Positions 2-29,986 of a DNA stretch of 64,000 bases are shown one piece after another. Made by a program: the position numbers and the translations under genes. A model generated the notes under the pieces. That model was not told the origin of the DNA. It ran no database searches and was given only the letters and a program-made list of their open reading frames with translations. Each line of letters starts with the position of its first letter. Position 1 is the first letter of the stretch. The DNA is taken from NCBI RefSeq assembly GCF_988243305.1, contig NZ_OZ547136.1. One strand, given 5' to 3'.

Positions 2-1360
2 TTTATTGAGGGATTAAGCGGATACCGCGATTTCCGCCGCCGGGATGAGAAACCGATGCTCACCCGCTCCGCATGGCAGGAGGTTCTCGTTCAGGCCGGG
101 TTTGCAAACGAGCTGGCGTGGCCCGCGCAGGAATCGTCGCCGCTGCGCCAGCATCTGCTGGTAGCGCGTTCGCCTGGCGTAAATCGCCCGGATAAAAAAG
201 CCGTGAGCCGCTATTTACAGCAGCGCTTTGGCACCGGTCTGCCCATTTTACAGATCCGGCAAAGAGAAGCGTTATTTACGCCGCTGCATGCCCCGTCTGA
301 TGCGCCGACTGAGCCAGCCAAACCCACGCCAGTTGCCGGGGGGAATCCGGCACTGGAAAAACAGGTGGCTGAACTCTGGCAATCGCTGCTGTCTCGCCCC
401 GTGGCAAGGCATCACGACTTTTTCGAACTGGGCGGCGACAGCCTGATGGCGACAAGGATGGTCGCGCAGCTAAACCGGAGAGGGATTGCCAGGGCTAACC
501 TTCAGGATCTGTTCAGCCATTCGACGCTGAGCGACTTCTGCGCCCATCTACAGGCGGCTACGTCAGGAGAGGACAACCCGATACCCCTTTGCCAGGGCGA
601 CGGTGAGGAAACCCTGTTTGTCTTCCACGCTTCAGACGGCGATATCAGCGCCTGGCTGCCGCTCGCTAGCGCGTTGAACAGGCGCGTTTTCGGCCTGCAA
701 GCAAAATCGCCGCAGCGCCTTGCCACGCTCGACCAGATGATCGATGAGTATGTCGGGTGCATCCGTCGTCAGCAGCCTCACGGCCCTTATGTGCTGGCGG
801 GTTGGTCGTATGGCGCGTTTCTTGCGGCGGGCGCCGCACAACGCCTGTACGCCAAAGGCGAGCAGGTTCGGATGGTGTTAATCGATCCCGTGTGCCGACA
901 GGATTTCTGTTGCGAAAACCGGGCGGCCCTGCTGCGCCTGTTAGCCGAAGGACAAACGCCTCTGGCACTGCCCGAACATTTCGACCAGCAGACGCCCGAC
1001 AGCCAGCTTGCCGACTTTATCAGCCTCGCTAAAACGGCCGGTATGGTGTCGCAAAACCTGACGCTGCAAGCGGCAGAAACGTGGCTCGACAACATCGCGC
1101 ATCTGCTGCGTTTACTGACTGAGCATACGCCGGGCGAAAGCGTTCCGGTCCCCTGTCTCATGGTGTATGCCGCCGGGAGACCCGCGCACTGGACGCCAGC
1201 AGAAACCGAGTGGCAGGGCTGGATAAACAACGCCGACGACGCTGTGATTGAAGCCAGCCACTGGCAAATCATGATGGAAGCCCCCCACGTTCAGGCTTGT
1301 GCGCAACACATTACGCGCTGGCTTTGCGCAACCTCAACGCAACCGGAGAACACGTTATGA
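2..1360 (+). CDS. irp1: Yersiniabactin PKS/NRPS HMWP1, C-terminal part (5'-partial, frame open to window start)
   Basis: Frame open from nt 2; carrier-protein motif FFELGGDSLMATRMV and thioesterase GWSYGA; followed in canonical order by ybtU-ybtT-ybtE-fyuA. Confidence 0.8.
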   Translation, partial: FIEGLSGYRDFRRRDEKPMLTRSAWQEVLVQAGFANELAWPAQESSPLRQHLLVARSPGVNRPDKKAVSRYLQQRFGTGLPILQIRQREALFTPLHAPSDAPTEPAKPTPVAGGNPALEKQVAELWQSLLSRPVARHHDFFELGGDSLMATRMVAQLNRRGIARANLQDLFSHSTLSDFCAHLQAATSGEDNPIPLCQGDGEETLFVFHASDGDISAWLPLASALNRRVFGLQAKSPQRLATLDQMIDEYVGCIRRQQPHGPYVLAGWSYGAFLAAGAAQRLYAKGEQVRMVLIDPVCRQDFCCENRAALLRLLAEGQTPLALPEHFDQQTPDSQLADFISLAKTAGMVSQNLTLQAAETWLDNIAHLLRLLTEHTPGESVPVPCLMVYAAGRPAHWTPAETEWQGWINNADDAVIEASHWQIMMEAPHVQACAQHITRWLCATSTQPENTL

Positions 1361-2457
1361 TGCCGTCCGCCTCCCCAAAACAACGCGTACTGATTGTGGG
1401 CGCCAAATTTGGCGAAATGTACCTGAATGCCTTTATGCAGCCCCCGGAGGGGCTGGAACTGGTCGGCCTGCTGGCGCAGGGAAGCGCCCGTTCAAGAGAG
1501 CTGGCTCATGCGTTTGGCATTCCGCTGTATACCTCGCCGGAACAGATAACCAGGATGCCGGATATCGCCTGTATTGTCGTGCGTTCGACCGTCGCCGGAG
1601 GAACCGGTACGCAGCTTGCCAGACACTTTCTGACGCGCGGCGTACACGTCATTCAGGAGCATCCCCTCCACCCGGATGACATCAGTTCCTTACAAACGCT
1701 GGCGCAGGAACAGGGCTGCTGCTATTGGGTAAACACGTTTTATCCGCATACGCGCGCGGGACGCACATGGCTTCGCGATGCGCAGCAGCTGCGTCGCTGT
1801 CTGGCTAAGACGCCGCAGGTGGTCCACGCCACCACCAGCCGACAGTTGCTCTACTCCACTCTGGATTTGTTGTTGCTGGCTCTGGGCGTTGATGCCGTCG
1901 CCGTGGAGTGCGACGTGGTTGGCAGCTTTAGCGATTTTCACTGTCTGAGACTCTTCTGGCCGGAGGGAGAAGCCTGCCTGCTGCTTCAGCGCTATCTCGA
2001 TCCTGACGATCCAGATATGCATAGCCTTATCATGCACCGCCTGCTGCTGGGCTGGCCGGAAGGTCATCTTTCGCTGGAGGCGAGCTACGGCCCCGTCATC
2101 TGGTCATCCAGCCTGTTTGTCGCAGACCATCAGGAGAACGCCCACAGCCTCTACCGCAGACCGGAGATCCTGCGCGATCTGCCGGGTCTGACGCGCAGCG
2201 CGGCGCCCCTGAGCTGGCGCGACTGCTGCGAAACCGTCGGGCCGGAGGGCGTCAGCTGGTTGCTACACCAGTTGCGCAGCCATCTGGCGGGCGAACATCC
2301 ACCAGCGGCCTGCCAAAGCGTACATCAGATCGCGTTATCACGTTTATGGCAGCAGATTTTACGTAAGACCGGCAATGCGGAGATCAGACGCCTGACGCCG
2401 CCGCACCACGACCGGTTAGCCGGTTTCTACAACGATGATGATAAGGAGGCGCTGTGA
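1357..2457 (+). CDS. ybtU: Yersiniabactin thiazolinyl imide reductase YbtU (366 aa)
   Basis: ATG at 1357 overlaps irp1 stop (ATGA); Rossmann-like N-terminus RVLIVGAKFG; position in ybt operon. Track ORF starts 60 nt earlier. Confidence 0.8.
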   Translation: MMPSASPKQRVLIVGAKFGEMYLNAFMQPPEGLELVGLLAQGSARSRELAHAFGIPLYTSPEQITRMPDIACIVVRSTVAGGTGTQLARHFLTRGVHVIQEHPLHPDDISSLQTLAQEQGCCYWVNTFYPHTRAGRTWLRDAQQLRRCLAKTPQVVHATTSRQLLYSTLDLLLLALGVDAVAVECDVVGSFSDFHCLRLFWPEGEACLLLQRYLDPDDPDMHSLIMHRLLLGWPEGHLSLEASYGPVIWSSSLFVADHQENAHSLYRRPEILRDLPGLTRSAAPLSWRDCCETVGPEGVSWLLHQLRSHLAGEHPPAACQSVHQIALSRLWQQILRKTGNAEIRRLTPPHHDRLAGFYNDDDKEAL

Positions 2458-3257
2458 CGCAATCTGCAATGTGCATACCGCTGTGGCCCGCCCGGAACGG
2501 CAATACTGCGCATCTGGTCATGTGCCCTTTCGCTGGCGGCAGCAGTAGCGCGTTTCGCCACTGGCAAGCTGAGCAACTGGCTGATTGCGCGCTTTCTCTG
2601 GTGACCTGGCCGGGGCGCGATCGCCTTCGCCATCTGGAACCGCTCAGAAGCATTACACAACTGGCGGCACTGCTGGCGAACGAGCTGGAAGCATCCGTAT
2701 CGCCTGACACGCCGCTTTTACTCGCCGGGCACAGCATGGGGGCGCAGGTGGCGTTTGAAACCTGCCGACTTCTGGAGCAACGGGGGCTTGCGCCACAAGG
2801 ACTGATTATTTCCGGGTGCCATGCCCCGCATCTGCATTCTGAACGCCAGCTCAGCCATCGCGATGATGCCGACTTTATCGCTGAGCTGATAGACATTGGC
2901 GGATGTTCTCCTGAACTGCGGGAAAACCAGGAATTAATGTCGCTGTTTCTTCCTCTTCTGCGCGCTGATTTTTACGCCACCGAGAGCTATCACTACGACT
3001 CGCCCGACGTCTGTCCGCCGCTGCGCACGCCTGCGCTGTTATTGTGCGGCAGCCACGATCGCGAAGCCTCCTGGCAGCAGGTCGATGCCTGGCGTCAGTG
3101 GCTGAGCCACGTTACAGGCCCGGTGGTGATTGACGGCGATCATTTCTATCCCATTCAACAAGCCCGGTCCTTTTTTACGCAGATTGTCCGCCATTTTCCC
3201 CACGCATTTTCTGCAATGACCGCGTTGCAAAAACAGCCCAGTACTTCAGAAAGGTGA
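2454..3257 (+). CDS. ybtT: Yersiniabactin type II thioesterase YbtT (267 aa)
   Basis: GTG start overlapping ybtU stop; GHSMG serine-hydrolase motif; operon position. Confidence 0.8.
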   Translation: MTQSAMCIPLWPARNGNTAHLVMCPFAGGSSSAFRHWQAEQLADCALSLVTWPGRDRLRHLEPLRSITQLAALLANELEASVSPDTPLLLAGHSMGAQVAFETCRLLEQRGLAPQGLIISGCHAPHLHSERQLSHRDDADFIAELIDIGGCSPELRENQELMSLFLPLLRADFYATESYHYDSPDVCPPLRTPALLLCGSHDREASWQQVDAWRQWLSHVTGPVVIDGDHFYPIQQARSFFTQIVRHFPHAFSAMTALQKQPSTSER

Positions 3258-3260
3258 CGC

Positions 3261-4838
3261 ATGAATTCTTCCTTTGAATCTCTGATTGAACAGTATCCCT
3301 TACCCATTGCCGAACAGTTGCGCCACTGGGCGGCCCGTTATGCCTCGCGAATTGCCGTCGTTGATGCAAAGGGGTCGTTAACCTACAGCGCGCTTGATGC
3401 ACAAGTTGACGAACTTGCCGCAGGTCTGTCATCACTGGGTTTGCGTTCGGGGGAGCATGTAATTGTGCAGCTTCCCAACGACAATGCGTTTGTTACCCTG
3501 CTGTTCGCCTTGTTAAGACTGGGTGTTATCCCCGTGCTGGCGATGCCCTCGCAACGGGCGCTGGATATCGACGCGCTGATTGAGCTGGCGCAACCCGTCG
3601 CTTACGTTATTCACGGGGAAAACCACGCAGAGCTGGCCCGACAGATGGCGCACAAACACGCCTGCTTGCGTCATGTTCTGGTCGCTGGAGAGACCGTGAG
3701 CGACGATTTTACGCCGCTCTTCTCCCTTCACGGTGAGCGACAGGCATGGCCGCAGCCTGATGTTTCCGCCACCGCGTTGTTGTTGCTCTCAGGCGGCACA
3801 ACCGGCACGCCCAAACTCATCCCGCGCCGACATGCCGACTATAGCTATAACTTCAGCGCTTCTGCTGAACTGTGCGGCATCAGCCAACAGAGCGTGTATC
3901 TCGCCGTCCTCCCGGTGGCGCATAACTTTCCGCTGGCCTGCCCCGGTATTCTGGGAACGCTTGCCTGCGGCGGAAAAGTGGTGCTGACCGACAGCGCCAG
4001 CTGTGATGAGGTGATGCCTTTAATCGCGCAGGAAAGAGTGACTCACGTCGCCCTGGTTCCGGCGCTGGCGCAATTATGGGTGCAGGCCAGGGAGTGGGAA
4101 GACAGCGACCTTTCGTCGCTGCGCGTCATTCAGGCAGGCGGCGCCCGGCTCGACCCGACGCTTGCTGAGCAGGTTATCGCCACCTTTGACTGTACCCTGC
4201 AACAGGTTTTCGGTATGGCGGAAGGCCTGCTCTGTTTTACCCGGCTGGACGATCCGCATGCCACCATTCTCCACAGCCAGGGGCGCCCGTTGTCCCCTCT
4301 GGATGAAATCCGCATCGTTGATCAAGACGAGAACGACGTCGCGCCGGGCGAAACCGGGCAATTGTTAACGCGCGGCCCTTATACCATTTCGGGCTATTAC
4401 CGCGCCCCTGCCCACAACGCGCAGGCCTTTACCGCGCAAGGGTTTTACCGCACAGGCGACAATGTCAGGCTGGATGAGGTGGGGAACCTGCACGTTGAGG
4501 GACGCATAAAAGAGCAGATCAACCGCGCCGGAGAAAAAATAGCCGCGGCTGAAGTGGAATCGGCACTGCTGCGTTTAGCGGAAGTGCAAGATTGCGCGGT
4601 GGTCGCCGCGCCGGACACGCTGCTTGGCGAGCGGATTTGCGCGTTTATCATCGCGCAGCAGGTGCCAACTGACTATCAGCAGTTGCGTCAACAACTGACC
4701 CGTATGGGGCTCAGCGCGTGGAAAATTCCTGACCAAATCGAGTTTCTGGACCACTGGCCGCTCACCGCCGTCGGCAAGATAGACAAAAAACGCCTGACGG
4801 CTCTCGCCGTCGACCGTTATCGCCATTCTGCCCAATAA
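3261..4838 (+). CDS. ybtE: Salicyl-AMP ligase YbtE (525 aa)
   Basis: Adenylate-forming enzyme motifs (LLLSGGTTGTPKLIP, YRTGD, GKIDKK); operon position. Confidence 0.85.
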   Translation: MNSSFESLIEQYPLPIAEQLRHWAARYASRIAVVDAKGSLTYSALDAQVDELAAGLSSLGLRSGEHVIVQLPNDNAFVTLLFALLRLGVIPVLAMPSQRALDIDALIELAQPVAYVIHGENHAELARQMAHKHACLRHVLVAGETVSDDFTPLFSLHGERQAWPQPDVSATALLLLSGGTTGTPKLIPRRHADYSYNFSASAELCGISQQSVYLAVLPVAHNFPLACPGILGTLACGGKVVLTDSASCDEVMPLIAQERVTHVALVPALAQLWVQAREWEDSDLSSLRVIQAGGARLDPTLAEQVIATFDCTLQQVFGMAEGLLCFTRLDDPHATILHSQGRPLSPLDEIRIVDQDENDVAPGETGQLLTRGPYTISGYYRAPAHNAQAFTAQGFYRTGDNVRLDEVGNLHVEGRIKEQINRAGEKIAAAEVESALLRLAEVQDCAVVAAPDTLLGERICAFIIAQQVPTDYQQLRQQLTRMGLSAWKIPDQIEFLDHWPLTAVGKIDKKRLTALAVDRYRHSAQ

Positions 4839-4847
4839 GCGCAAACC

Positions 4848-4883
4848 GACCCGAAACAGGTTGAAATAAACCCGTTTCGGGTA
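4848..4883. promoter_or_regulatory. Inverted repeat GACCCGAAAC-N-GTTTCGGGT between ybtE and fyuA; candidate YbtA-binding repeat or ybtE terminator
   Basis: Perfect 9-10 bp inverted repeat read directly; assignment to YbtA is inference from known AraC-type regulation of fyuA. Confidence 0.3.
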
Positions 4884-4894
4884 GCACTACTATT

Positions 4895-4915
4895 AGAAAT
4901 AGTTATCATTTTCAA
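4895..4915 (+). promoter_or_regulatory. Candidate Fur box upstream of fyuA
   Basis: AAATAGTTATCATTTTCAA resembles the Fur consensus GATAATGATAATCATTATC; fyuA is iron-regulated. Confidence 0.35.
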
Positions 4916-4968
4916 TTCACCATTGTCGGTATTTTTGGCGTTTCGCCGTCTTACAGGGACTCACAACA

Positions 4969-6990
4969 ATGAAAATGACACGGCTTTATCCTCTGGCCTT
5001 GGGGGGATTATTGCTCCCCGCCATTGCTAATGCCCAGACTTCACAGCAAGACGAAAGCACGCTGGTGGTTACCGCCAGTAAACAATCTTCCCGCTCGGCA
5101 TCAGCCAACAACGTCTCGTCTACTGTTGTCAGCGCGCCGGAATTAAGCGACGCCGGCGTCACCGCCAGCGACAAACTCCCCAGAGTCTTGCCCGGGCTCA
5201 ATATTGAAAATAGCGGCAACATGCTTTTTTCGACGATCTCGCTACGCGGCGTCTCTTCAGCGCAGGACTTCTATAACCCCGCCGTCACCCTGTATGTCGA
5301 TGGCGTCCCTCAGCTTTCCACCAACACCATCCAGGCGCTTACCGATGTGCAAAGCGTGGAGTTGCTGCGAGGCCCACAGGGAACGTTATATGGCAAAAGC
5401 GCTCAGGGCGGGATCATCAACATCGTCACCCAGCAGCCGGACAGCACGCCGCGCGGCTATATTGAAGGCGGCGTCAGTAGCCGCGACAGTTATCGAAGTA
5501 AGTTCAACCTGAGCGGCCCCATTCAGGATGGCCTGCTGTACGGCAGCGTCACCCTGTTACGCCAGGTTGATGACGGCGACATGATTAACCCCGCGACGGG
5601 AAGCGATGACTTAGGCGGCACCCGCGCCAGCATAGGGAATGTGAAACTGCGTCTGGCGCCGGACGATCAGCCCTGGGAAATGGGCTTTGCCGCCTCACGC
5701 GAATGTACCCGCGCCACCCAGGACGCCTATGTGGGATGGAATGATATTAAGGGCCGTAAGCTGTCGATCAGCGATGGTTCACCAGACCCGTACATGCGGC
5801 GCTGCACTGACAGCCAGACCCTGAGTGGGAAATACACCACCGATGACTGGGTTTTCAACCTGATCAGCGCCTGGCAGCAGCAGCATTATTCGCGCACCTT
5901 CCCTTCCGGTTCGTTAATCGTCAATATGCCTCAGCGCTGGAATCAGGATGTGCAGGAGCTGCGCGCCGCAACCCTGGGCGATGCGCGTACCGTTGATATG
6001 GTGTTTGGGCTGTACCGGCAGAACACCCGCGAGAAGTTAAATTCAGCCTACGACATGCCGACAATGCCTTATTTAAGCAGTACCGGCTATACCACCGCTG
6101 AAACGCTGGCCGCATACAGTGACCTGACCTGGCATTTAACCGATCGTTTTGATATCGGCGGCGGCGTGCGCTTCTCGCATGATAAATCCAGTACACAATA
6201 TCACGGCAGCATGCTCGGCAACCCGTTTGGCGACCAGGGTAAGAGCAATGACGATCAGGTGCTCGGGCAGCTATCCGCAGGCTATATGCTGACCGATGAC
6301 TGGAGAGTGTATACCCGTGTAGCCCAGGGATATAAACCTTCCGGGTACAACATCGTGCCTACTGCGGGTCTTGATGCCAAACCGTTCGTCGCCGAGAAAT
6401 CCATCAACTATGAACTTGGCACCCGCTACGAAACCGCTGACGTCACGCTGCAAGCCGCGACGTTTTATACCCACACCAAAGACATGCAGCTTTACTCTGG
6501 CCCGGTCGAGATGCAGACATTAAGCAATGCGGGTAAAGCCGACGCCACCGGCGTTGAGCTTGAAGCGAAGTGGCGGTTTGCGCCAGGCTGGTCATGGGAT
6601 ATCAATGGCAACGTGATCCGTTCCGAATTCACCAATGACAGTGAGTTGTATCACGGTAACCGGGTGCCGTTCGTACCACGTTATGGCGCGGGAAGCAGCG
6701 TGAACGGCGTGATTGATACGCGCTATGGCGCACTGATGCCCCGACTGGCGGTTAATCTGGTCGGGCCGCATTATTTCGATGGCGACAACCAGTTGCGGCA
6801 AGGCACCTATGCCACCCTGGACAGCAGCCTGGGCTGGCAGGCGACTGAACGGATGAACATTTCCGTCTATGTCGATAACCTGTTCGACCGTCGTTACCGT
6901 ACCTATGGCTACATGAACGGCAGCAGCGCCGTCGCGCAGGTCAATATGGGTCGCACCGTCGGTATCAATACGCGAATTGATTTCTTCTGA
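4969..6990 (+). CDS. fyuA: TonB-dependent yersiniabactin/pesticin outer-membrane receptor FyuA (673 aa)
   Basis: Signal peptide, TonB-box region and C-terminal beta-barrel ending in aromatic residue F; 673 aa as expected. Confidence 0.9.
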   Translation: MKMTRLYPLALGGLLLPAIANAQTSQQDESTLVVTASKQSSRSASANNVSSTVVSAPELSDAGVTASDKLPRVLPGLNIENSGNMLFSTISLRGVSSAQDFYNPAVTLYVDGVPQLSTNTIQALTDVQSVELLRGPQGTLYGKSAQGGIINIVTQQPDSTPRGYIEGGVSSRDSYRSKFNLSGPIQDGLLYGSVTLLRQVDDGDMINPATGSDDLGGTRASIGNVKLRLAPDDQPWEMGFAASRECTRATQDAYVGWNDIKGRKLSISDGSPDPYMRRCTDSQTLSGKYTTDDWVFNLISAWQQQHYSRTFPSGSLIVNMPQRWNQDVQELRAATLGDARTVDMVFGLYRQNTREKLNSAYDMPTMPYLSSTGYTTAETLAAYSDLTWHLTDRFDIGGGVRFSHDKSSTQYHGSMLGNPFGDQGKSNDDQVLGQLSAGYMLTDDWRVYTRVAQGYKPSGYNIVPTAGLDAKPFVAEKSINYELGTRYETADVTLQAATFYTHTKDMQLYSGPVEMQTLSNAGKADATGVELEAKWRFAPGWSWDINGNVIRSEFTNDSELYHGNRVPFVPRYGAGSSVNGVIDTRYGALMPRLAVNLVGPHYFDGDNQLRQGTYATLDSSLGWQATERMNISVYVDNLFDRRYRTYGYMNGSSAVAQVNMGRTVGINTRIDFF

Positions 6991-7027: not shown

Positions 7028-7775
7028 CACCACTAGTTAAAACCAGTAACTCAGCAGAGTCGCAAAAAATATTAATCCATAGTGATTATTTAAACAATGA
7101 AATTGCGATTAGGATAAATAGATTTAACTTTCTCGTTCCTTTCTCTCCTTATACTAAAGAAATAATCATATCAAAATAAAAATTCACAACAGTGCAACAT
7201 TAAAAAATACAACCAACAAACAATCCTATATACAAGGCACATCTCCAGAATATAAAAGCACAGACAAACAACCTAAAAAAAACAACCCCATACATATAAA
7301 TTATTTTATAGGTAAAATAGATTATATATTCTCATAGCTACCACAAACTATACTAGCCTGAACTATATTTATTCTGCTGCAATCAATGCATACATAACAC
7401 AAATATCACTCAGGTACACTACTCAAACCACGCTGGGATTTTTCCTCAAGTTATAATCATCACCCCGAAAATCATTCGGCATTTACTCATTAAATAGTCA
7501 CCCCATAGGCCTGTACATGTTTACTCAGAAATATACATCCTTTTCTCTGTCATAAACCCTCTAATTAATCATAAATAAATACTTGTGACACCAATCTTTT
7601 TCCTTAACGGAACGAATTGTTGTGTAGAAGGAGATAATATTATGTCAAAAAAAATATCAGCCATTGCTTATAACTCATTATATGTCAACATGGGTCACTA
7701 TAACGGAAGCAGTTGAGATCACTACCAAAGCCATAAAACAAAAAAATTACTCCTAGCGATATTTATCGTCATGCC

Positions 7776-10484
7776 TTGAGTGGCAACATCCTACTATCGG
7801 TCTATTTCCAGTCTCCTGTGATACTTAAGAAGATACAAACTTTTAATGGAAAAATAAAATTCAGGCAGTTTGTGGGAGACCTACTTGATAAACTATGCAT
7901 GCTTGACAGGGACGGTTTTATTTATGGTCAAAATTTAAGACTCTGTACAGAAGCTAGATATATTTGTCCTGTGCAACAAATTATAGATACCCCCCTGTTA
8001 CGCAAACTCAACCAGTTTCGTACGTTTGTTCGTAATGTCCGCCCGGGTGATGAACTGGATGTCCCGGCACAAGTTAGTGAAAAAAATTTAACCCCGCCGC
8101 CGGGTAACAGCAGTGGCAACCTTGAGCAACAGATAGCCAGTACTTCACAGCTAATTGGATCTCTGCTCGCCGAAGATATGAACAGCGAGCAAGCGGCAAA
8201 CATAGCACGTGGATGGGCCTCTTCTCAGGCTTCAGGGGTAATGACAGACTGGTTAAGCCGCTTCGGTACCGCAAGAATCACGCTGGGCGTGGATGAAGAT
8301 TTCAGCCTGAAGAACTCCCGTGACGGCAACCCTCGAAAATGGCGATTCGATGCAACAAACAGTGAACTATGTGCCGAACGTCACGAATGCTGAAATCACG
8401 CTGGCAGCCTCGAAGGACCCGGTGATTGCCGACAATAACGATCTCACGACACTAACAGCACCGTCGCTGATACAGAGGGCAATGCGATAGCCAACACTGA
8501 GGTAACATTTACTCTACCGGAAGATGTGAAGGCGAACTTCACGCTGAGCGATGGCGACAAAGCGGTTACTGATGCCGATGGCAAAGCGAAAGTCACGCTG
8601 AAAGGTACAAAAGCAGGCGCTCATACCGTGACAGCATCGATGGTTGGCGGTAAGAGTGAGCAGTTGGTGGTGAACTTTACTGCGGATACGCTCACTACGC
8701 AGGTTAATCTTAACGTTACCGAGGACAATTTCATCGCCAATAACATTGGAATGACCAGGCTACAGGCAACAGTGACTGATGGAAACGGCAACCCAGTAGA
8801 AGGTATAAAAGTTAATTTCCGTGGAACCTCCGTCACGCTAAGCAGCACCAGCGTTGAAACGGATGATCAGGTTTTCGCTGAAATTCTTGTGACAAGCACC
8901 GAGGTCGGACTAAAAACAGTTTCAGCCTCTCTGGCAGATAAACCTACTGAAGTCATCTCGCGATTACTGAATGCCAAGGTAGATGTTAATTCTGCGACGA
9001 TTACCAGTCAGGAGATACCTGAAGGTCAGGTCATGGTCGCACAAGACATAGCAGTTAAAGCTCACGTTAACGACCAGTTTGGCAACCCGGTGACGCATCA
9101 ACCCGCGACATTCAGTGCAGCGCCATCCTCGCAAATGATCATCAGCCAGAATACGGTCTCTACTAATACGCAGGGAGTAGCCGAGGTCACCATGACGCCT
9201 GAAAGAAACGGCTCGTATACTGTAAAAGCATCCCTAGCGAATGGAGCTTCACTTGAGAAACAACTGGAGGCTATTGATGAAAAACTGACACTCACGTCCA
9301 GTCCGCTTATCGGTGTCAATGCTCCTAAAGGCGCTACTCTGACGGCAATGCTAACCTCTGCAAATGGCACTCCAGTGGAGGGTCAGGTCATCAACTTTAG
9401 CGTAACGCTAGAAGGTGCGACGTTAAGTGGCGGAAAAGTGAGAACCAACTCTTCAGGTCAGGCTCCAGTCGTTCTGACCAGCAATAAAGTCGGTACATAT
9501 ACGGTGACTGCATCGTTCCATAACGGCGTCACAATACAGACACAGACAACCGTGAAGGTTACTGGCAACCCAAGCACCGCACATGTTGCTAGCTTTATCG
9601 CTGAACCGTCGACTATCGCCGCCACCAACAGTGATTTAAGTACCTTAAAGGCAACGGTTGAGGATGGCAGTGGTAACCTGATCGAAGGTCTCACTGTGTA
9701 CTTCGCCTTAAAAAACGGCTCCACCACATTAACGTCATTAACAGCGGTGACCGATCAAAACGGAATCGCGACAACAAGCGTGAAAGGAGCGATAACGGGG
9801 AGCGTCACTGTAAGCACAGTCACAAGCGCAGGTGGAATGCAAACAGTAGATATATCGCTAGTGGCAGGCCCAGCAGACGCCTCGCAGTCCATCCTTAAGA
9901 ACAACCAGTCATCACTGAAAGGGGACTTTACCGATAGTGCTGAGCTACATCTTGTTCTGCACGATATATCAGGCAATCCGATCAAAGTTTCTGAAGGGAT
10001 GGAATTTGTGCAATCAGGTACAAACGTGCCCTATATGAAAATTAGCGCAATTGATTACACTCAAAATATCAACGGTGATTACAAAGCTACTGTTACAGGA
10101 GACGGAGAGGGTATCGCAACGCTGATCCCCGTATTGAATGGTGTTCATCAGGCGGGCCTGAGTACCACGATAGAATTCATTAGCGCGGAAACCAGACCAA
10201 TGACGGGTACAGTGTCAGTGAATAGTGCAAACCTACCGACAGCTTCATTCCCTTCGCAGGGATTTACCGGGGCGTATTATCAGTTGAATAATGACAACTT
10301 TGCACCAGGAAAAACGGCGGCTGATTATTCGTTTTCAAGCTCGGCCTCCTGGGTAGGCGTTGATGCTACTGGTAAAGTGACATTCAAAAATGACGGTGAT
10401 AGCAATACAGTAATAATCACAGCGCCCCCAAGATCCGGTGGTGCTATTTACCAAACAGTTCCTCCTGAATCGCGTTCGGTGTGA
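7776..10484 (+). pseudogene. yeeJ: Decayed inverse-autotransporter adhesin gene (yeeJ-like): N-terminal segment fused by a large internal deletion to C-terminal Big-domain repeats, with frameshift and premature stop
   Basis: ORF 7776-8393 has the LysM-linker/beta-domain start (LRKLNQFRTF...DELDVPAQVSEK...ARITLGVDEDFSLKNS); alternate frame at 8355-8460 continues as Big-repeat sequence (MQQTVNYVPNVTNAEITLAASKDP); one-base frameshift near 8459; ORF 8526-10484 is Big-repeat-rich and ends early. Total ~2.7 kb versus ~7 kb for the intact gene. Confidence 0.65.
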
Positions 10485-10611: not shown

Positions 10612-11664
10612 TCAAATTCTCGCCAAAACACTTTTTAATGCCTTTGCGAATTCATCCAGACTTATATTGTCAATTTTTTGCCCAACGACGACTGACTCCG
10701 AAACATCGGCCATTGCGGGCCATCGCGTTTTGTAATCAGCATAAATTGCAACAACAGGGGTATTATAGGCACTTGCCATATGTAATATTGAGGTGTCAGG
10801 AGTTATTGCAATATAAGCATCTTTTATGATTGCTGCTGAACGTTTAATCGAGGGTGATAAGGATAAACGGTAGACATTATTATAACAATCCACTAATGCC
10901 CTGGCTTTATCTTCCCCTTTGGGTCCATAAACGATCACTATTGGAATATCTGTTTCACTTTGAATTTTTGCTATTAGATTTTCTGCAATCGATAATGAAA
11001 ATGTACGTTCCTGCGAGCTACCGTCTAAATTGAGCGCAATGTAAGATCCTAACGATCGCATTTCCTCGCGTACCTCATCGAGTACATCATCGCTTAATGG
11101 CAATTCATATATTGACCTGACTACCGGAAAACCCGCCTCACGCATCATAAATGCCCATGTCATGGGTACAGGAGTCCGGAGATTCTGATCCATCCGGGAC
11201 GCGTTCTTACACAAAGGGGAATAGCACTTCATGGTTAAACCGACGACCTGGAAATTCGTTTTTGCTTTCAACTGACTGATAAATATCATCGTTTTCAGGT
11301 TCTTTTTACGCATCGCCTCTATACAAAGATCCGGCGTACCGTATTGCAGTGTTATATTCTTCGCTAAATCTTTTATTTCTTTTAATGTTGCGTGATCCTG
11401 CATAGTCATTGTGACTAATGTTAATTTAGTCTGTTCAAGTTTGAGCGCATTAAAGACTTCTAAATTAATTGTCGACGTAACAATTAATAGATGCTTAATT
11501 TTATGCAATTCAAGCGCCCGAATAACAGGAAAGATGGCCATAGCATCGCCAATCTGATCGGGAATATGTATGACAACAAAGTCTGTTTTTTCAATATTAA
11601 AATTATAAGCTTTATAATCGTAGTAACTAAATGCAATACGTCTCAACAATGATACTAAAAACAT
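10612..11664 (-). CDS. yeeL: Putative glycosyltransferase (family 9 heptosyltransferase-like), 350 aa
   Basis: Intact ORF, ATG at 11664 (MFLVSLLRR); conserved position between yeeJ and shiA. Track ORF starts at an upstream TTG. Confidence 0.55.
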   Translation of the reverse strand: MFLVSLLRRIAFSYYDYKAYNFNIEKTDFVVIHIPDQIGDAMAIFPVIRALELHKIKHLLIVTSTINLEVFNALKLEQTKLTLVTMTMQDHATLKEIKDLAKNITLQYGTPDLCIEAMRKKNLKTMIFISQLKAKTNFQVVGLTMKCYSPLCKNASRMDQNLRTPVPMTWAFMMREAGFPVVRSIYELPLSDDVLDEVREEMRSLGSYIALNLDGSSQERTFSLSIAENLIAKIQSETDIPIVIVYGPKGEDKARALVDCYNNVYRLSLSPSIKRSAAIIKDAYIAITPDTSILHMASAYNTPVVAIYADYKTRWPAMADVSESVVVGQKIDNISLDEFAKALKSVLARI

Positions 11665-11978
11665 AACTAACCTCGCCTCCCTACTGGTTATAATGCAATG
11701 CAGTCTATCAGAATCATCAGGGTGCAATTTTGTGCATATGCGGACTTTTATGTTTCATATCTCGAACCTGTGGGCCATCTGCTTAATCCTTAAACAACAC
11801 CAGCAACTCCTGCGCTTTCATCTTCCATCGAATTTTTCATGTTGCCGCTAATCAGCCATAAAATCATTTGCAGATGCGCTCTGTCGAGGTAGTCTCATAA
11901 GGTTCGTTTATAGATCGACGGCAATGTGAGTTACCTTTTCCATACTAATTATAAAAAGACAGTACAAACAGGATCATT

Positions 11979-13295
11979 ATGGACTCCACGCTCATCTCCA
12001 CTCGTCCCGATGAAGGGACGCTTTCGTTAAGTCGCGCCCGACGAGCTGCGTTAGGCAGTTTCGCTGGTGCCGTCGTCGACTGGTATGATTTTTTACTCTA
12101 TGGCATTACCGCCGCACTGGTGTTTAATCGCGAGTTTTTCCCGCAAGTAAGCCCGGCGATGGGAACGCTCGCCGCATTTGCCACCTTTGGTGTCGGCTTC
12201 CTTTTCCGACCGCTCGGCGGTGTCATTTTCGGTCACTTTGGTGACCGACTGGGACGTAAGCGCATGTTAATGCTGACCGTCTGGATGATGGGCATCGCGA
12301 CAGCCTTGATTGGTATTCTTCCTTCATTCTCGACCATTGGGTGGTGGGCACCTATTTTGCTGGTGACACTGCGTGCCATTCAGGGATTTGCCGTCGGCGG
12401 CGAATGGGGAGGCGCAGCGTTGCTTTCCGTTGAAAGTGCGCCGAAAAATAAAAAAGCCTTTTACAGTAGCGGTGTACAAGTTGGCTACGGAGTAGGTTTA
12501 CTGCTTTCAACCGGACTGGTTTCATTGATCAGTATGATGACGACTGACGTACAGTTTTTAAGCTGGGGCTGGCGCATTCCTTTCCTGTTTAGCATCGTAC
12601 TGGTACTGGGAGCATTGTGGGTGCGCAATGGCATGGAGGAGTCCGCGGAATTTGAACAACAGCAACATAATCAAGCGGCCGCGAAAAAACGCATCCCGGT
12701 TATCGAAGCTCTGTTACGACATCCCGGTGCTTTCCTGAAGATTATTGCGCTACGACTGTGCGAGTTGCTGACGATGTACATCGTTACCGCCTTTGCACTT
12801 AATTATTCAACCCAGAATATGGGGTTACCGCGCGAACTTTTCCTTAATATTGGTTTGCTGGTAGGTGGATTAAGCTGCCTGACAATTCCCTGTTTTGCCT
12901 GGCTTGCCGATCGTTTTGGTCGCCGCAGGTTTTATATCACAGGTGCGTTAATCGGAATGTTGAGCGCATTTCCTTTCTTTATGGCGCTTGAAGCACAATC
13001 TATTTTCTGGATAGTTTTCTTCTCCATAATGCTGGCAAACATTGCGCATGACATGGTGGTGTGTGTGCAACAACCGATGTTTACCGAAATGTTTGGTGCC
13101 AGTTATCGCTATAGTGGCGCTGGAGTCGGTTATCAGGTTGCCAGTGTGGTTGGTGGTGGATTTACACCTTTTATTGCCGCTGCACTCATCACTTACTTTG
13201 CCGGGAACTGGCATAGCGTCGCCATTTATTTGCTGGCTGGATGCCTGATTTCCGCAATAACCGCTTTGTTGATGAAAGACAATCAACGCGCTTGA
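11979..13295 (+). CDS. shiA: Shikimate transporter ShiA (MFS, 438 aa)
   Basis: 12-TM MFS protein with GxLaDRxGRR motifs; length and neighbourhood match. Confidence 0.85.
   Translation: MDSTLISTRPDEGTLSLSRARRAALGSFAGAVVDWYDFLLYGITAALVFNREFFPQVSPAMGTLAAFATFGVGFLFRPLGGVIFGHFGDRLGRKRMLMLTVWMMGIATALIGILPSFSTIGWWAPILLVTLRAIQGFAVGGEWGGAALLSVESAPKNKKAFYSSGVQVGYGVGLLLSTGLVSLISMMTTDVQFLSWGWRIPFLFSIVLVLGALWVRNGMEESAEFEQQQHNQAAAKKRIPVIEALLRHPGAFLKIIALRLCELLTMYIVTAFALNYSTQNMGLPRELFLNIGLLVGGLSCLTIPCFAWLADRFGRRRFYITGALIGMLSAFPFFMALEAQSIFWIVFFSIMLANIAHDMVVCVQQPMFTEMFGASYRYSGAGVGYQVASVVGGGFTPFIAAALITYFAGNWHSVAIYLLAGCLISAITALLMKDNQRA

Positions 13296-27258: not shown

Positions 27259-29986
<2,728 letters not shown>

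What the first reader, a model, noticed from the sequence alone, without database searches (positions are those of the whole stretch)
10612..11664. yeeL glycosyltransferase appears intact here
A continuous 350-aa frame is present, whereas as I recall the K-12 copy is annotated as a split pseudogene. An intact allele would help assign its function.
Basis: partly seen in the sequence, partly recalled or inferred. Interest (0 to 1): 0.25.

Follow-up and report, generated by a model that had tools for sequence, protein, structure and literature searches.

The report
Intact yeeL glycosyltransferase gene, ordinary allele
The window carries an intact copy of yeeL, a family-9 sugar-transferase gene that a single stop codon breaks in laboratory E. 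coli K-12, but the intact form is the normal, already annotated state in most E. coli, and its substrate is still unknown.

Summary
Window 10612-11664 (minus strand) is an uninterrupted 350-codon ORF with a good ribosome-binding site, lying between a decayed yeeJ and shiA/amn.

The K-12 copy (b4497) has the same length and is 98% identical. Its only lesion is CAA->TAA at codon 235, a nonsense mutation rather than a frameshift.

Intactness is not special:
- The exact protein occurs on >=1000 public contigs and is annotated "glycosyltransferase family 9 protein".
- Among 5426 complete E. coli genomes, about 4100 carry CAA at codon 235 and 771 carry the K-12 TAA.

The gene looks functional:
- dN/dS is 0.14-0.21.
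- The GT9 catalytic and donor-site residues are conserved: D40, R220, D290, H295.

It is not an orthologue of WaaC, WaaF or WaaQ, and it is not TibC-like.

YeeL forms a small, low-GC, patchily distributed subfamily that is usually a solitary gene. Distant members sit beside, or are fused to, O-antigen-ligase-like genes. The best guess is an accessory ADP-heptose-dependent transferase acting on LPS core or another lipid-linked glycan.

One published TraDIS screen links yeeL disruption to hyper-motility in ST131. The finding is ordinary, and the function remains open.

The parts
10612..11664 (-). yeeL coding sequence, 350 aa plus TGA stop; intact family-9 (GT-B) glycosyltransferase
11671..11681 (-). 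Shine-Dalgarno-like GGGAGGCGAGG; the GAGG ends 6 nt before the ATG at 11664
   Evidence: Read directly from the sequence. It supports the ATG start that RefSeq uses in near-identical genomes.
10960..10962 (-). Codon 235, CAA (Gln) here; TAA in K-12, which is the only lesion that makes K-12 yeeL a pseudogene
   Evidence: Pairwise DNA alignment and K-12 translation. Allele census.
11545..11547 (-). Codon for Asp40 in the IGD motif; aligns with the catalytic base Asp13 of WaaC
   Evidence: Invariant in the YeeL family and in WaaC/F/Q/U. Role of Asp13 taken from bioRxiv 10.1101/2021.06.16.448588.
11005..11007 (-). Codon for Arg220; aligns with WaaC Lys192, which contacts the pyrophosphate and heptose
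   Evidence: hhalign and MAFFT mapping. Invariant in the family.
10780..10797 (-). Codons 290-295, D-T-S-I-L-H; the GT9 donor-binding motif (WaaC D261, T262, H266)
   Evidence: hhalign against WaaC and WaaF. D290 and H295 are invariant across all 11 aligned sequences.
11074..11085 (-). Twelve bases (about residues 194-197, VLDE) that are present here and absent in common 346-aa E. coli alleles; an in-frame indel polymorphism
   Evidence: Comparison of P0009, P0018 and P0030 with the window protein.
11665..11978 (.). Divergent yeeL-shiA intergenic region, AT-rich, about 35-39% GC; presumed promoter region, with no strong sigma-70 consensus found
   Evidence: Composition profile. The promoter scan was no better than shuffled sequence.
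7683..10484 (+). Context: yeeJ (inverse autotransporter adhesin) remnant, convergent with yeeL; about 3.7 kb internal deletion plus a frameshift
   Evidence: blastn against K-12 and O157 yeeJ. ORF fragmentation. Pfam IAT_beta, Big_1 and Invasin_D3 hits. RefSeq pseudogene flags in near-identical genomes.
11979..13295 (+). Context: shiA shikimate transporter, divergent from yeeL
   Evidence: ORF and annotation of syntenic records.

Best explanation
Window 10612-11664 (minus strand) is the ordinary, intact and probably functional allele of E. coli yeeL.

Shown:
- The ORF is uninterrupted.
- K-12 differs by a single nonsense codon (Q235*).
- Intact alleles predominate in the species and evolve under purifying selection.
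- The protein is a canonical two-domain GT-B enzyme of CAZy family GT9.

Inferred mechanism:
- YeeL is a soluble or peripherally membrane-associated cytoplasmic inverting glycosyltransferase.
- Its acidic C-terminal domain binds an ADP-heptose-type donor through R220, D290-T291 and H295.
- Asp40 in the basic N-terminal domain deprotonates a hydroxyl of an anionic glycolipid acceptor.
- The acceptor is most likely the LPS core oligosaccharide (or another lipid-linked glycan) at the inner face of the inner membrane, which would receive a non-essential, strain-variable sugar branch.

YeeL is not WaaC, WaaF or WaaQ. It is a separate, low-GC, horizontally mobile accessory GT9 subfamily. It needs no dedicated partner genes because ADP-heptose is already made for the inner core.
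For: Intact and common:
- ORF and K-12 comparison.
- The locus is present in 5286 of 5426 complete genomes.
- The TAA allele is in 771 genomes. The CAA allele is in 3652, plus about 445 of the O157-type allele.
- The exact protein is on >=1000 contigs.

Functional:
- dN/dS is 0.14-0.21 within E. coli and about 0.1 between species.
- The window protein keeps all 56 family-invariant residues.

Fold:
- AF2 pLDDT 92, pTM 0.90.
- Foldseek top hits are 3TOV, WaaF and WaaC.

Catalytic and donor residues:
- D40, R220, D290, T291 and H295 align with WaaC D13, K192, D261, T262 and H266.
- Their roles are described in 10.1101/2021.06.16.448588.

Acceptor hints:
- The N-domain has pI 9.35 and the C-domain pI 4.9. 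This fits the basic acceptor-binding loops described for HepI.
- Subfamily members in Carnimonas bestiolae and a related metagenome genome lie beside GT2 and Wzy_C (O-antigen-ligase-like) genes inside glycan clusters.
- One member is a Wzy_C::YeeL-like fusion protein.

Phenotype: Tn5 insertions in yeeL of ST131 EC958 were enriched in hyper-motile cells, logFC 7.46 (PMC5425062). The EC958 protein is 346/350 identical to the window protein and sits in the same locus layout.
Against: - No biochemical data exist. Neither donor nor acceptor is demonstrated.
- In Enterobacterales the gene is nearly always solitary, with no conserved neighbour. The LPS link therefore rests on distant relatives at about 34% identity and on one fusion protein.
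- Wzy_C proteins also include polymerases and protein O-oligosaccharyltransferases (my own knowledge), so that link is not specific to LPS.
- The gene is repeatedly lost: TAA in 14% of genomes, IS1 insertions, and a deletion fusion. It is therefore dispensable.
- Sequence similarity to the LPS heptosyltransferase models is far below their cut-offs.
- The TraDIS hit was not individually validated, and in my own experience LPS truncation usually lowers rather than raises motility.
- The window allele carries Thr at position 164, where >=90% of family members have Ala.
Confidence: 0.55

Rival explanations
1. YeeL is a protein heptosyltransferase, analogous to TibC or AAH. It would glycosylate the neighbouring adhesin YeeJ, or another autotransporter such as the Ag43-type protein elsewhere in the window, in the cytoplasm before export.
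For: yeeL lies next to yeeJ in E. coli. GT9-like enzymes that heptosylate autotransporters exist (PMC4358343). An AIDA/Ag43-type autotransporter is encoded at 38680-41955.
Against: - None of the BAHT hallmarks are present: no N-terminal beta-barrel, no beta-hairpin thumb, and no four-Cys iron finger. YeeL has Cys only at 114, 147, 152 and 260.
- yeeL and yeeJ are convergent, not an operon.
- Homologues in Pseudocitrobacter, a 72%-identical Escherichia lineage, E. albertii, Rosenbergiella, Erwinia and Halomonas have no adjacent adhesin.
- In this window and in EC958, yeeJ is a pseudogene while yeeL is intact.
- In K-12 the reverse holds, and YeeJ is still surface-displayed at its expected size and active (PMC5595812).
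- Full-length yeeJ is found in only 40% of genomes, against >=75% with an open yeeL codon 235.
Confidence: 0.07
2. The ORF is intact but functionally cryptic. It would be a silenced, horizontally acquired gene drifting toward loss, so its intactness carries no functional meaning.
For: - GC is 38.5% and GC3 36%, against about 50% in the flanks.
- No convincing promoter was found.
- There are several independent inactivations: TAA in 771 genomes including K-12 and B strains, IS1 insertions, and a deletion fusion on 101 contigs.
- Many partial Shigella sonnei products are deposited.
Against: - dN/dS is 0.14-0.21 within E. coli and about 0.1 across species.
- All catalytic and family-invariant residues are retained.
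- The gene is maintained in about 97% of complete genomes.
- Transposon disruption gave a selectable phenotype in EC958.
Confidence: 0.12
3. YeeL is a prophage-derived 'moron'. Its role would be to alter a surface receptor (for example LPS core) to block superinfecting phages. It would have become fixed in E. coli near the tRNA-Asn integration hotspot.
For: - In Erwinia aphidicola the 60%-identical homologue sits inside a P2-like prophage, between the tail-fibre and sheath genes. It forms a low-GC (about 42%) island in 60-69% GC phage DNA.
- The protein matches PHROG 27389 over its full length.
- The family has a patchy, mobile distribution.
Against: - There is only one prophage context.
- tblastn found no match in 50,697 GenBank phage records.
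- IMG/VR viral contigs hold only remote generic GT9s at 25-31% identity.
- PADLOC gave no hit.
- No phage genes flank yeeL in E. coli.
- This rival concerns origin and selective benefit. It is compatible with the main mechanism rather than excluding it.
Confidence: 0.12

Closest known systems
E. coli K-12 yeeL pseudogene (b4497; formerly two ORFs, from memory b1979/b1980; UniRef name 'Putative uncharacterized protein YeeL')
   Same: Same locus (yeeJ / yeeL / shiA / amn), same 1053-nt length, and 98% nucleotide identity.
   Different: K-12 has TAA at codon 235 where the window has CAA. There are also 17 amino-acid substitutions. The K-12 allele is the minority state, 771 of 5426 genomes.
RefSeq 'glycosyltransferase family 9 protein' of E. 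coli (e.g. WP_001551292.1, WP_000480517.1 of EC958, WP_000480501.1 of O157:H7)
   Same: Orthologous intact 350-aa proteins at the same locus, 96-99.7% identical. The exact window sequence is itself in public collections.
   Different: Nothing of substance. These are lineage-specific substitutions only.
LPS inner-core heptosyltransferases WaaC (HepI, PDB 2GT1/2H1F/2H1H/6DFE) and WaaF (HepII, 1PSW); Veillonella GT9 3TOV
   Different: - Only 12-15% identity.
- NCBIfam equivalog scores are far below the cut-offs: 37.9 against 185 for HepI.
- YeeL has an extra N-terminal helix of about 27 residues and a family-specific conserved insert at about residues 142-170.
- It is encoded outside the waa cluster.
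- It is dispensable.
BAHT family (TibC, AAH) autotransporter heptosyltransferases
   Same: A GT9-like catalytic core with an Asp base. In E. coli the gene lies next to an adhesin gene.

Membership tests
CAZy GT9 / Pfam PF01075 Glyco_transf_9 | Profile match above the curated gathering threshold | tested here: met
   PF01075 scores 29.6 bits against a cut-off of 22, E 5.6e-7, but the match covers only residues 232-321. Other subfamily members score 28-52 bits.
CAZy GT9 / Pfam PF01075 Glyco_transf_9 | GT-B fold (two Rossmann-like domains) with GT9 structures as nearest neighbours | tested here: met
CAZy GT9 / Pfam PF01075 Glyco_transf_9 | Catalytic Asp after strand beta-1 (WaaC Asp13) and donor-site K192/D261/T262/H266 equivalents | tested here: met
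   D40, R220, D290, T291 and H295 align with them. They are invariant in 25 family members, and D40, D290 and H295 are invariant across WaaC/F/Q/U.
CAZy GT9 / Pfam PF01075 Glyco_transf_9 | Glycosyl transfer from ADP-heptose (or another nucleotide sugar) demonstrated | not testable with these tools
   Needs an enzyme assay.
LPS heptosyltransferase I/II/III orthologues (WaaC, WaaF, WaaQ; TIGR02193/02195/02201, NF008204, NF008162, NF007742) | Score above the NCBIfam equivalog cut-off | tested here: not met
   37.9 against 185.3, 19.2 against 134.6 and 16.2 against 170.2; the PRK models score 13-14 against 437-569.
LPS heptosyltransferase I/II/III orthologues | Encoded in the waa (rfa) core-biosynthesis cluster | tested here: not met
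   yeeL lies at the yeeJ-shiA locus, about 1.74 Mb from waaF/C/Q/U in K-12.
BAHT (TibC/AAH) autotransporter heptosyltransferases | N-terminal beta-barrel, beta-hairpin thumb and 4-Cys iron finger that build a dodecamer (PMC4358343) | tested here: not met
BAHT (TibC/AAH) autotransporter heptosyltransferases | Genetically coupled to its autotransporter substrate | tested here: not met
   yeeL is convergent with yeeJ. Homologues lack an adhesin neighbour. The intact and pseudogene states of yeeJ and yeeL are uncoupled.
K-12-type yeeL pseudogene | Premature stop at codon 235 (TAA) | tested here: not met
   The window has CAA at 10960-10962 and an open frame of 350 codons.

The most novel reading that the evidence does not exclude
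YeeL is an unrecognised, species-wide accessory heptosyltransferase. It would add a non-stoichiometric sugar to the LPS core (or another envelope glycolipid) of most natural E. coli. It would have escaped study because K-12 and B laboratory strains share the Q235* allele. Its presence or absence would modulate envelope-linked traits such as motility and phage or immune recognition.
Probability: 0.35. Interest if true: 0.45.

Novelty: already known. Interest (0 to 1): 0.15.

Why it matters
As a finding it matters little. The intact allele is the common state and is already annotated, so the window adds no new information.

The background point has modest value. A conserved, selectively maintained GT9 enzyme is present in most E. 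coli but is knocked out in K-12 and B strains, and it has no assigned substrate. If it modifies the LPS core, standard descriptions of E. coli core structures would be incomplete for this modification. Those descriptions rest on defined core types and on K-12 genetics. The one reported phenotype (hyper-motility of yeeL insertion mutants in ST131) would then have a mechanistic handle.

Tried and rejected
1. TibC/AAH-like adhesin glycosylation. Rejected on structure, on the missing BAHT modules, and on the lack of a conserved adhesin neighbour.

2. Orthology to WaaC, WaaF or WaaQ. Rejected by NCBIfam scores.

3. Profile search of PDB sequences. The top hits to AlphaRep designer proteins are spurious summed matches to the short IGDxxAxxPxIxxL motif, with no single stretch significant. 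The real hits are WaaC (E 2e-3) and WaaF.

4. Phage or defence origin.
- PADLOC gave no hit.
- GenBank phages gave no hit.
- IMG/VR holds only remote GT9s.
- PHROG 27389 matches but has no function.
- The single Erwinia P2-prophage context stays an anecdote.

5. Literature.
- 'yeeL' alone is swamped by author names.
- yeeL+yeeJ papers only list the locus as an engineering integration site.
- No paper holds both yeeJ and heptosyltransferase.
- The only functional mention found is the TraDIS table in PMC5425062.

6. A full census of intactness could not be done because only 60 rows are returned per search. I used 55-mers centred on the SNP, so that every 28-base megablast word spans codon 235. 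About 420 locus-positive genomes remain unclassified, and lesions elsewhere in the gene are not counted.

7. Promoter and terminator scans gave nothing above shuffled expectation.

Full report
**1. Observation**

The minus strand of window 10612-11664 holds an ATG-initiated ORF of 350 codons plus TGA.
- On the coding strand the start is preceded by AACCAGTAGGGAGGCGAGGTTAGTT-ATG, a strong Shine-Dalgarno with 6-nt spacing.
- A TTG 63 nt further upstream would give 371 aa. RefSeq annotates the 1053-nt form in near-identical genomes.
- The neighbours are an Ig-like/invasin ORF ending at 10484 (plus strand), shiA at 11979-13295 and amn. This is the yeeJ-yeeL-shiA-amn locus of E. coli.

**2. Comparison with K-12**

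In NC_000913.3, yeeL (b4497) is one pseudogene interval of 1053 nt.
- The alignment is gap-free and 98% identical.
- The K-12 frame is broken only by TAA at codon 235, where the window has CAA.
- There are 17 further amino-acid differences.
The 'split' is one nonsense codon.

**3. How unusual is an intact allele? It is not.**

- The locus is found in 5286 of 5426 complete E. coli genomes and is routinely annotated 'glycosyltransferase family 9 protein'.
- I used 55-mers centred on nt 703, so that every 28-base megablast seed must contain the SNP.
  - The K-12 TAA allele is in 771 genomes. These include K-12 and B laboratory derivatives, and also isolates from humans, ducks, pigs, chickens, frogs and river water.
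  - CAA in the window's sequence context is in 3652 genomes.
  - About 445 more carry the O157-type allele, which the window query cannot seed.
- O157:H7, ST2747, HET6 and ST131 EC958 all have intact 350-aa genes.
- The exact window protein is in public collections on >=1000 contigs. Its 90% cluster has 10,923 member sequences.
- Other independent lesions exist:
  - IS1 insertions in B771, and by its annotation in OZ038769, which was not inspected further.
  - A deletion that fuses codon ~172 to the antisense of yeeJ, seen on 101 contigs.
  - Many partial products from Shigella sonnei.
- A 12-nt in-frame indel (346-aa alleles) is also common.

**4. Is it a real, functional gene?**

- Nei-Gojobori dN/dS is 0.14-0.21 between E. 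coli alleles. It is about 0.1 against a 72%-identical Escherichia lineage.
- The window protein keeps all 56 residues that are invariant across 25 family members spanning 36-99% identity.
- It departs from one >=90%-conserved position (A164T).
- The gene has 38.5% GC (GC3 36%) inside about 50% GC flanks. This suggests old horizontal acquisition.

**5. What kind of protein?**

Sequence evidence:
- Pfam GT9 passes its threshold, but only over the C-terminal domain.
- NCBIfam heptosyltransferase I/II/III and RfaC/F/Q models hit far below their cut-offs.

Structural evidence:
- AlphaFold2 run with the family alignment gives a confident model, pLDDT 92 and pTM 0.90. It has an N-terminal helix followed by two Rossmann-like domains.
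- Foldseek ranks the Veillonella GT9 3TOV, WaaF 1PSW and WaaC 2GT1/2H1F/2H1H/6DFE first.

Residue mapping from hhalign and a MAFFT alignment with K-12 WaaC/F/Q/U:

| WaaC residue | YeeL residue |
|---|---|
| D13 | D40 |
| T187/T188 | G215/S216 |
| K192 | R220 |
| D261 | D290 |
| T262 | T291 |
| H266 | H295 |
| R120 | K146 |

- According to the HepI study 10.1101/2021.06.16.448588, these are the catalytic base, the pyrophosphate contacts, the heptose contacts and an acceptor-loop residue.
- The N-domain is basic (pI 9.35) and the C-domain acidic (pI 4.9).

**6. Family and genomic context**

An exhaustive profile search of 1.84 billion representatives finds 36 hits at E<1e-30. It then falls to generic GT9 C-domain matches, 3301 at E<1e-3. 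YeeL is therefore a small discrete subfamily.

Named members come from Escherichia, Pseudocitrobacter, Erwinia, Rosenbergiella, Halomonas and Carnimonas.

In Enterobacterales the gene is a solitary insert at differing sites:
- mtfA/yeeL/shiA without yeeJ in Pseudocitrobacter.
- hchA/yeeL/mtfA in a divergent Escherichia lineage.
- Near yciI/yciA in E. albertii.
- Between maeB and the eut operon in another genome.
- Next to an MFS transporter in Rosenbergiella.
- In Erwinia aphidicola, a low-GC island inside a P2-like prophage between the tail-fibre and sheath genes.

In Halomonadaceae-type genomes the context is different:
- The subfamily member lies beside GT2 and Wzy_C (O-antigen-ligase-like) genes within glycan clusters. 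These clusters also contain GT4 and an initiating phosphoglycosyl transferase. The Carnimonas cluster additionally holds a second GT9.
- One metagenomic protein fuses a Wzy_C domain to a full-length YeeL-like domain.

**7. Mechanism**

Shown: an intact GT9 GT-B enzyme with a complete catalytic and donor site, under purifying selection.

Inferred:
- It is an inverting transferase that uses ADP-heptose. The heptose-contacting K/R, D and H residues are conserved, and the donor is already available in every host.
- The acceptor is an anionic glycolipid, most plausibly the LPS core. This rests on the basic N-domain, the nearest structural relatives, and the Wzy_C association and fusion in distant members.
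- The acceptor assignment is the weak step.

Published phenotype:
- In a TraDIS swimming screen of ST131 EC958, insertions in EC958_2299 (yeeL) were enriched in the hyper-motile pool. The values were logFC 7.46 and P<0.001, without individual validation (PMC5425062).
- EC958 has the same HPI-fyuA-yeeJ remnant-yeeL-shiA layout as the window, and its YeeL is 346/350 identical.

**8. Rivals**

- YeeJ glycosylation, BAHT-like. This is disfavoured:
  - TibC's beta-barrel, hairpin thumb and 4-Cys iron finger (PMC4358343) are absent.
  - The adhesin neighbour is not conserved.
  - In this window yeeJ is a remnant with a ~3.7 kb internal deletion and a frameshift, while yeeL is intact.
  - K-12, which lacks YeeL, still displays functional full-length YeeJ. 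Only 40% of genomes have intact yeeJ (PMC5595812).
- Cryptic decaying gene. This is possible given the low GC and recurrent loss, but dN/dS and the TraDIS hit argue against it.
- Phage moron. This is supported by a single prophage context and a function-less PHROG. There are no hits in phage genomes, IMG/VR or PADLOC.

**9. Verdict**

- The implied significance is low, because the intact allele is the known, annotated, majority state.
- What remains open is the substrate of a conserved accessory GT9 that laboratory E. coli happen to lack.

Noticed in passing
window 7683-10484 (+): yeeJ (inverse autotransporter adhesin) is a remnant here. Window 7997-8319 matches the 5' end of K-12 yeeJ, then the match jumps about 3.7 kb into the gene. 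The reading frame is broken into three ORFs. The same state is annotated in HET6, B771 and ST131 EC958, directly after the yersiniabactin island.
   Followed up: partly
window 56-6990 (+): This is the 3' end of the yersiniabactin High-Pathogenicity Island (irp1 end, ybtU, ybtT, ybtE, fyuA), followed by about 1 kb of 30-35% GC DNA before the yeeJ remnant. The window therefore comes from an HPI-positive lineage whose locus layout matches ST131 EC958.
   Followed up: partly
window 27915-29438 (+): A 507-aa ORF with reverse-transcriptase (RVT_1) and group II intron maturase (GIIM) domains. This is probably a group II intron inside the island downstream of the asn tRNA cluster. The intron RNA boundaries were not examined.
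   Followed up: no
window 38680-41955 (+) and 42070-44592 (+): An Ag43/AIDA-type autotransporter (ESPR, AIDA repeats, autochaperone, beta-domain) is followed by an 840-aa ORF with no Pfam hit. They lie in a CP4-44-like island.
   Followed up: no
window 11074-11085 (-), yeeL residues ~194-197: A common in-frame 12-nt indel polymorphism. Many E. coli alleles are 346 aa and lack VLDE in the inter-domain linker region. The window carries the long form.
   Followed up: partly
L003:9400-11800 (Erwinia aphidicola CP188307.1): The YeeL homologue P0078 is a low-GC (about 42%) cargo gene inside a 60-69% GC P2-like prophage. It is convergent with the tail-fibre gene and overlaps its 3' end by 27 nt. It sits at the position where P2 carries its tail-fibre assembly and Z/fun genes (from memory of the P2 map). 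No tail-fibre chaperone gene is seen there.
   Followed up: partly
L015:1955-4288 (metagenome contig, protein P0133): A 777-aa fusion of a Wzy_C (O-antigen ligase/polymerase family) membrane domain with a full-length YeeL-like GT9 domain. It lies downstream of a GT4/polysaccharide-deacetylase fusion gene. The source organism is unknown.
   Followed up: partly
protein P0100 (207 aa, 101 contigs); corresponds to window ~9755-9860 antisense fused to yeeL codon ~172: A recurrent E. coli deletion removes the 3' half of yeeL and the 3' end of yeeJ. It creates a chimeric ORF whose tail is the antisense translation of yeeJ.
   Followed up: partly
K-12 allele, L001:8600-8654: The Q235* allele is not a K-12 laboratory artefact. 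It is shared by E. coli B derivatives (for example ATCC 11303, B95 delta A) and by wild isolates from several hosts. It is therefore an old lineage polymorphism, probably within phylogroup A.
   Followed up: partly
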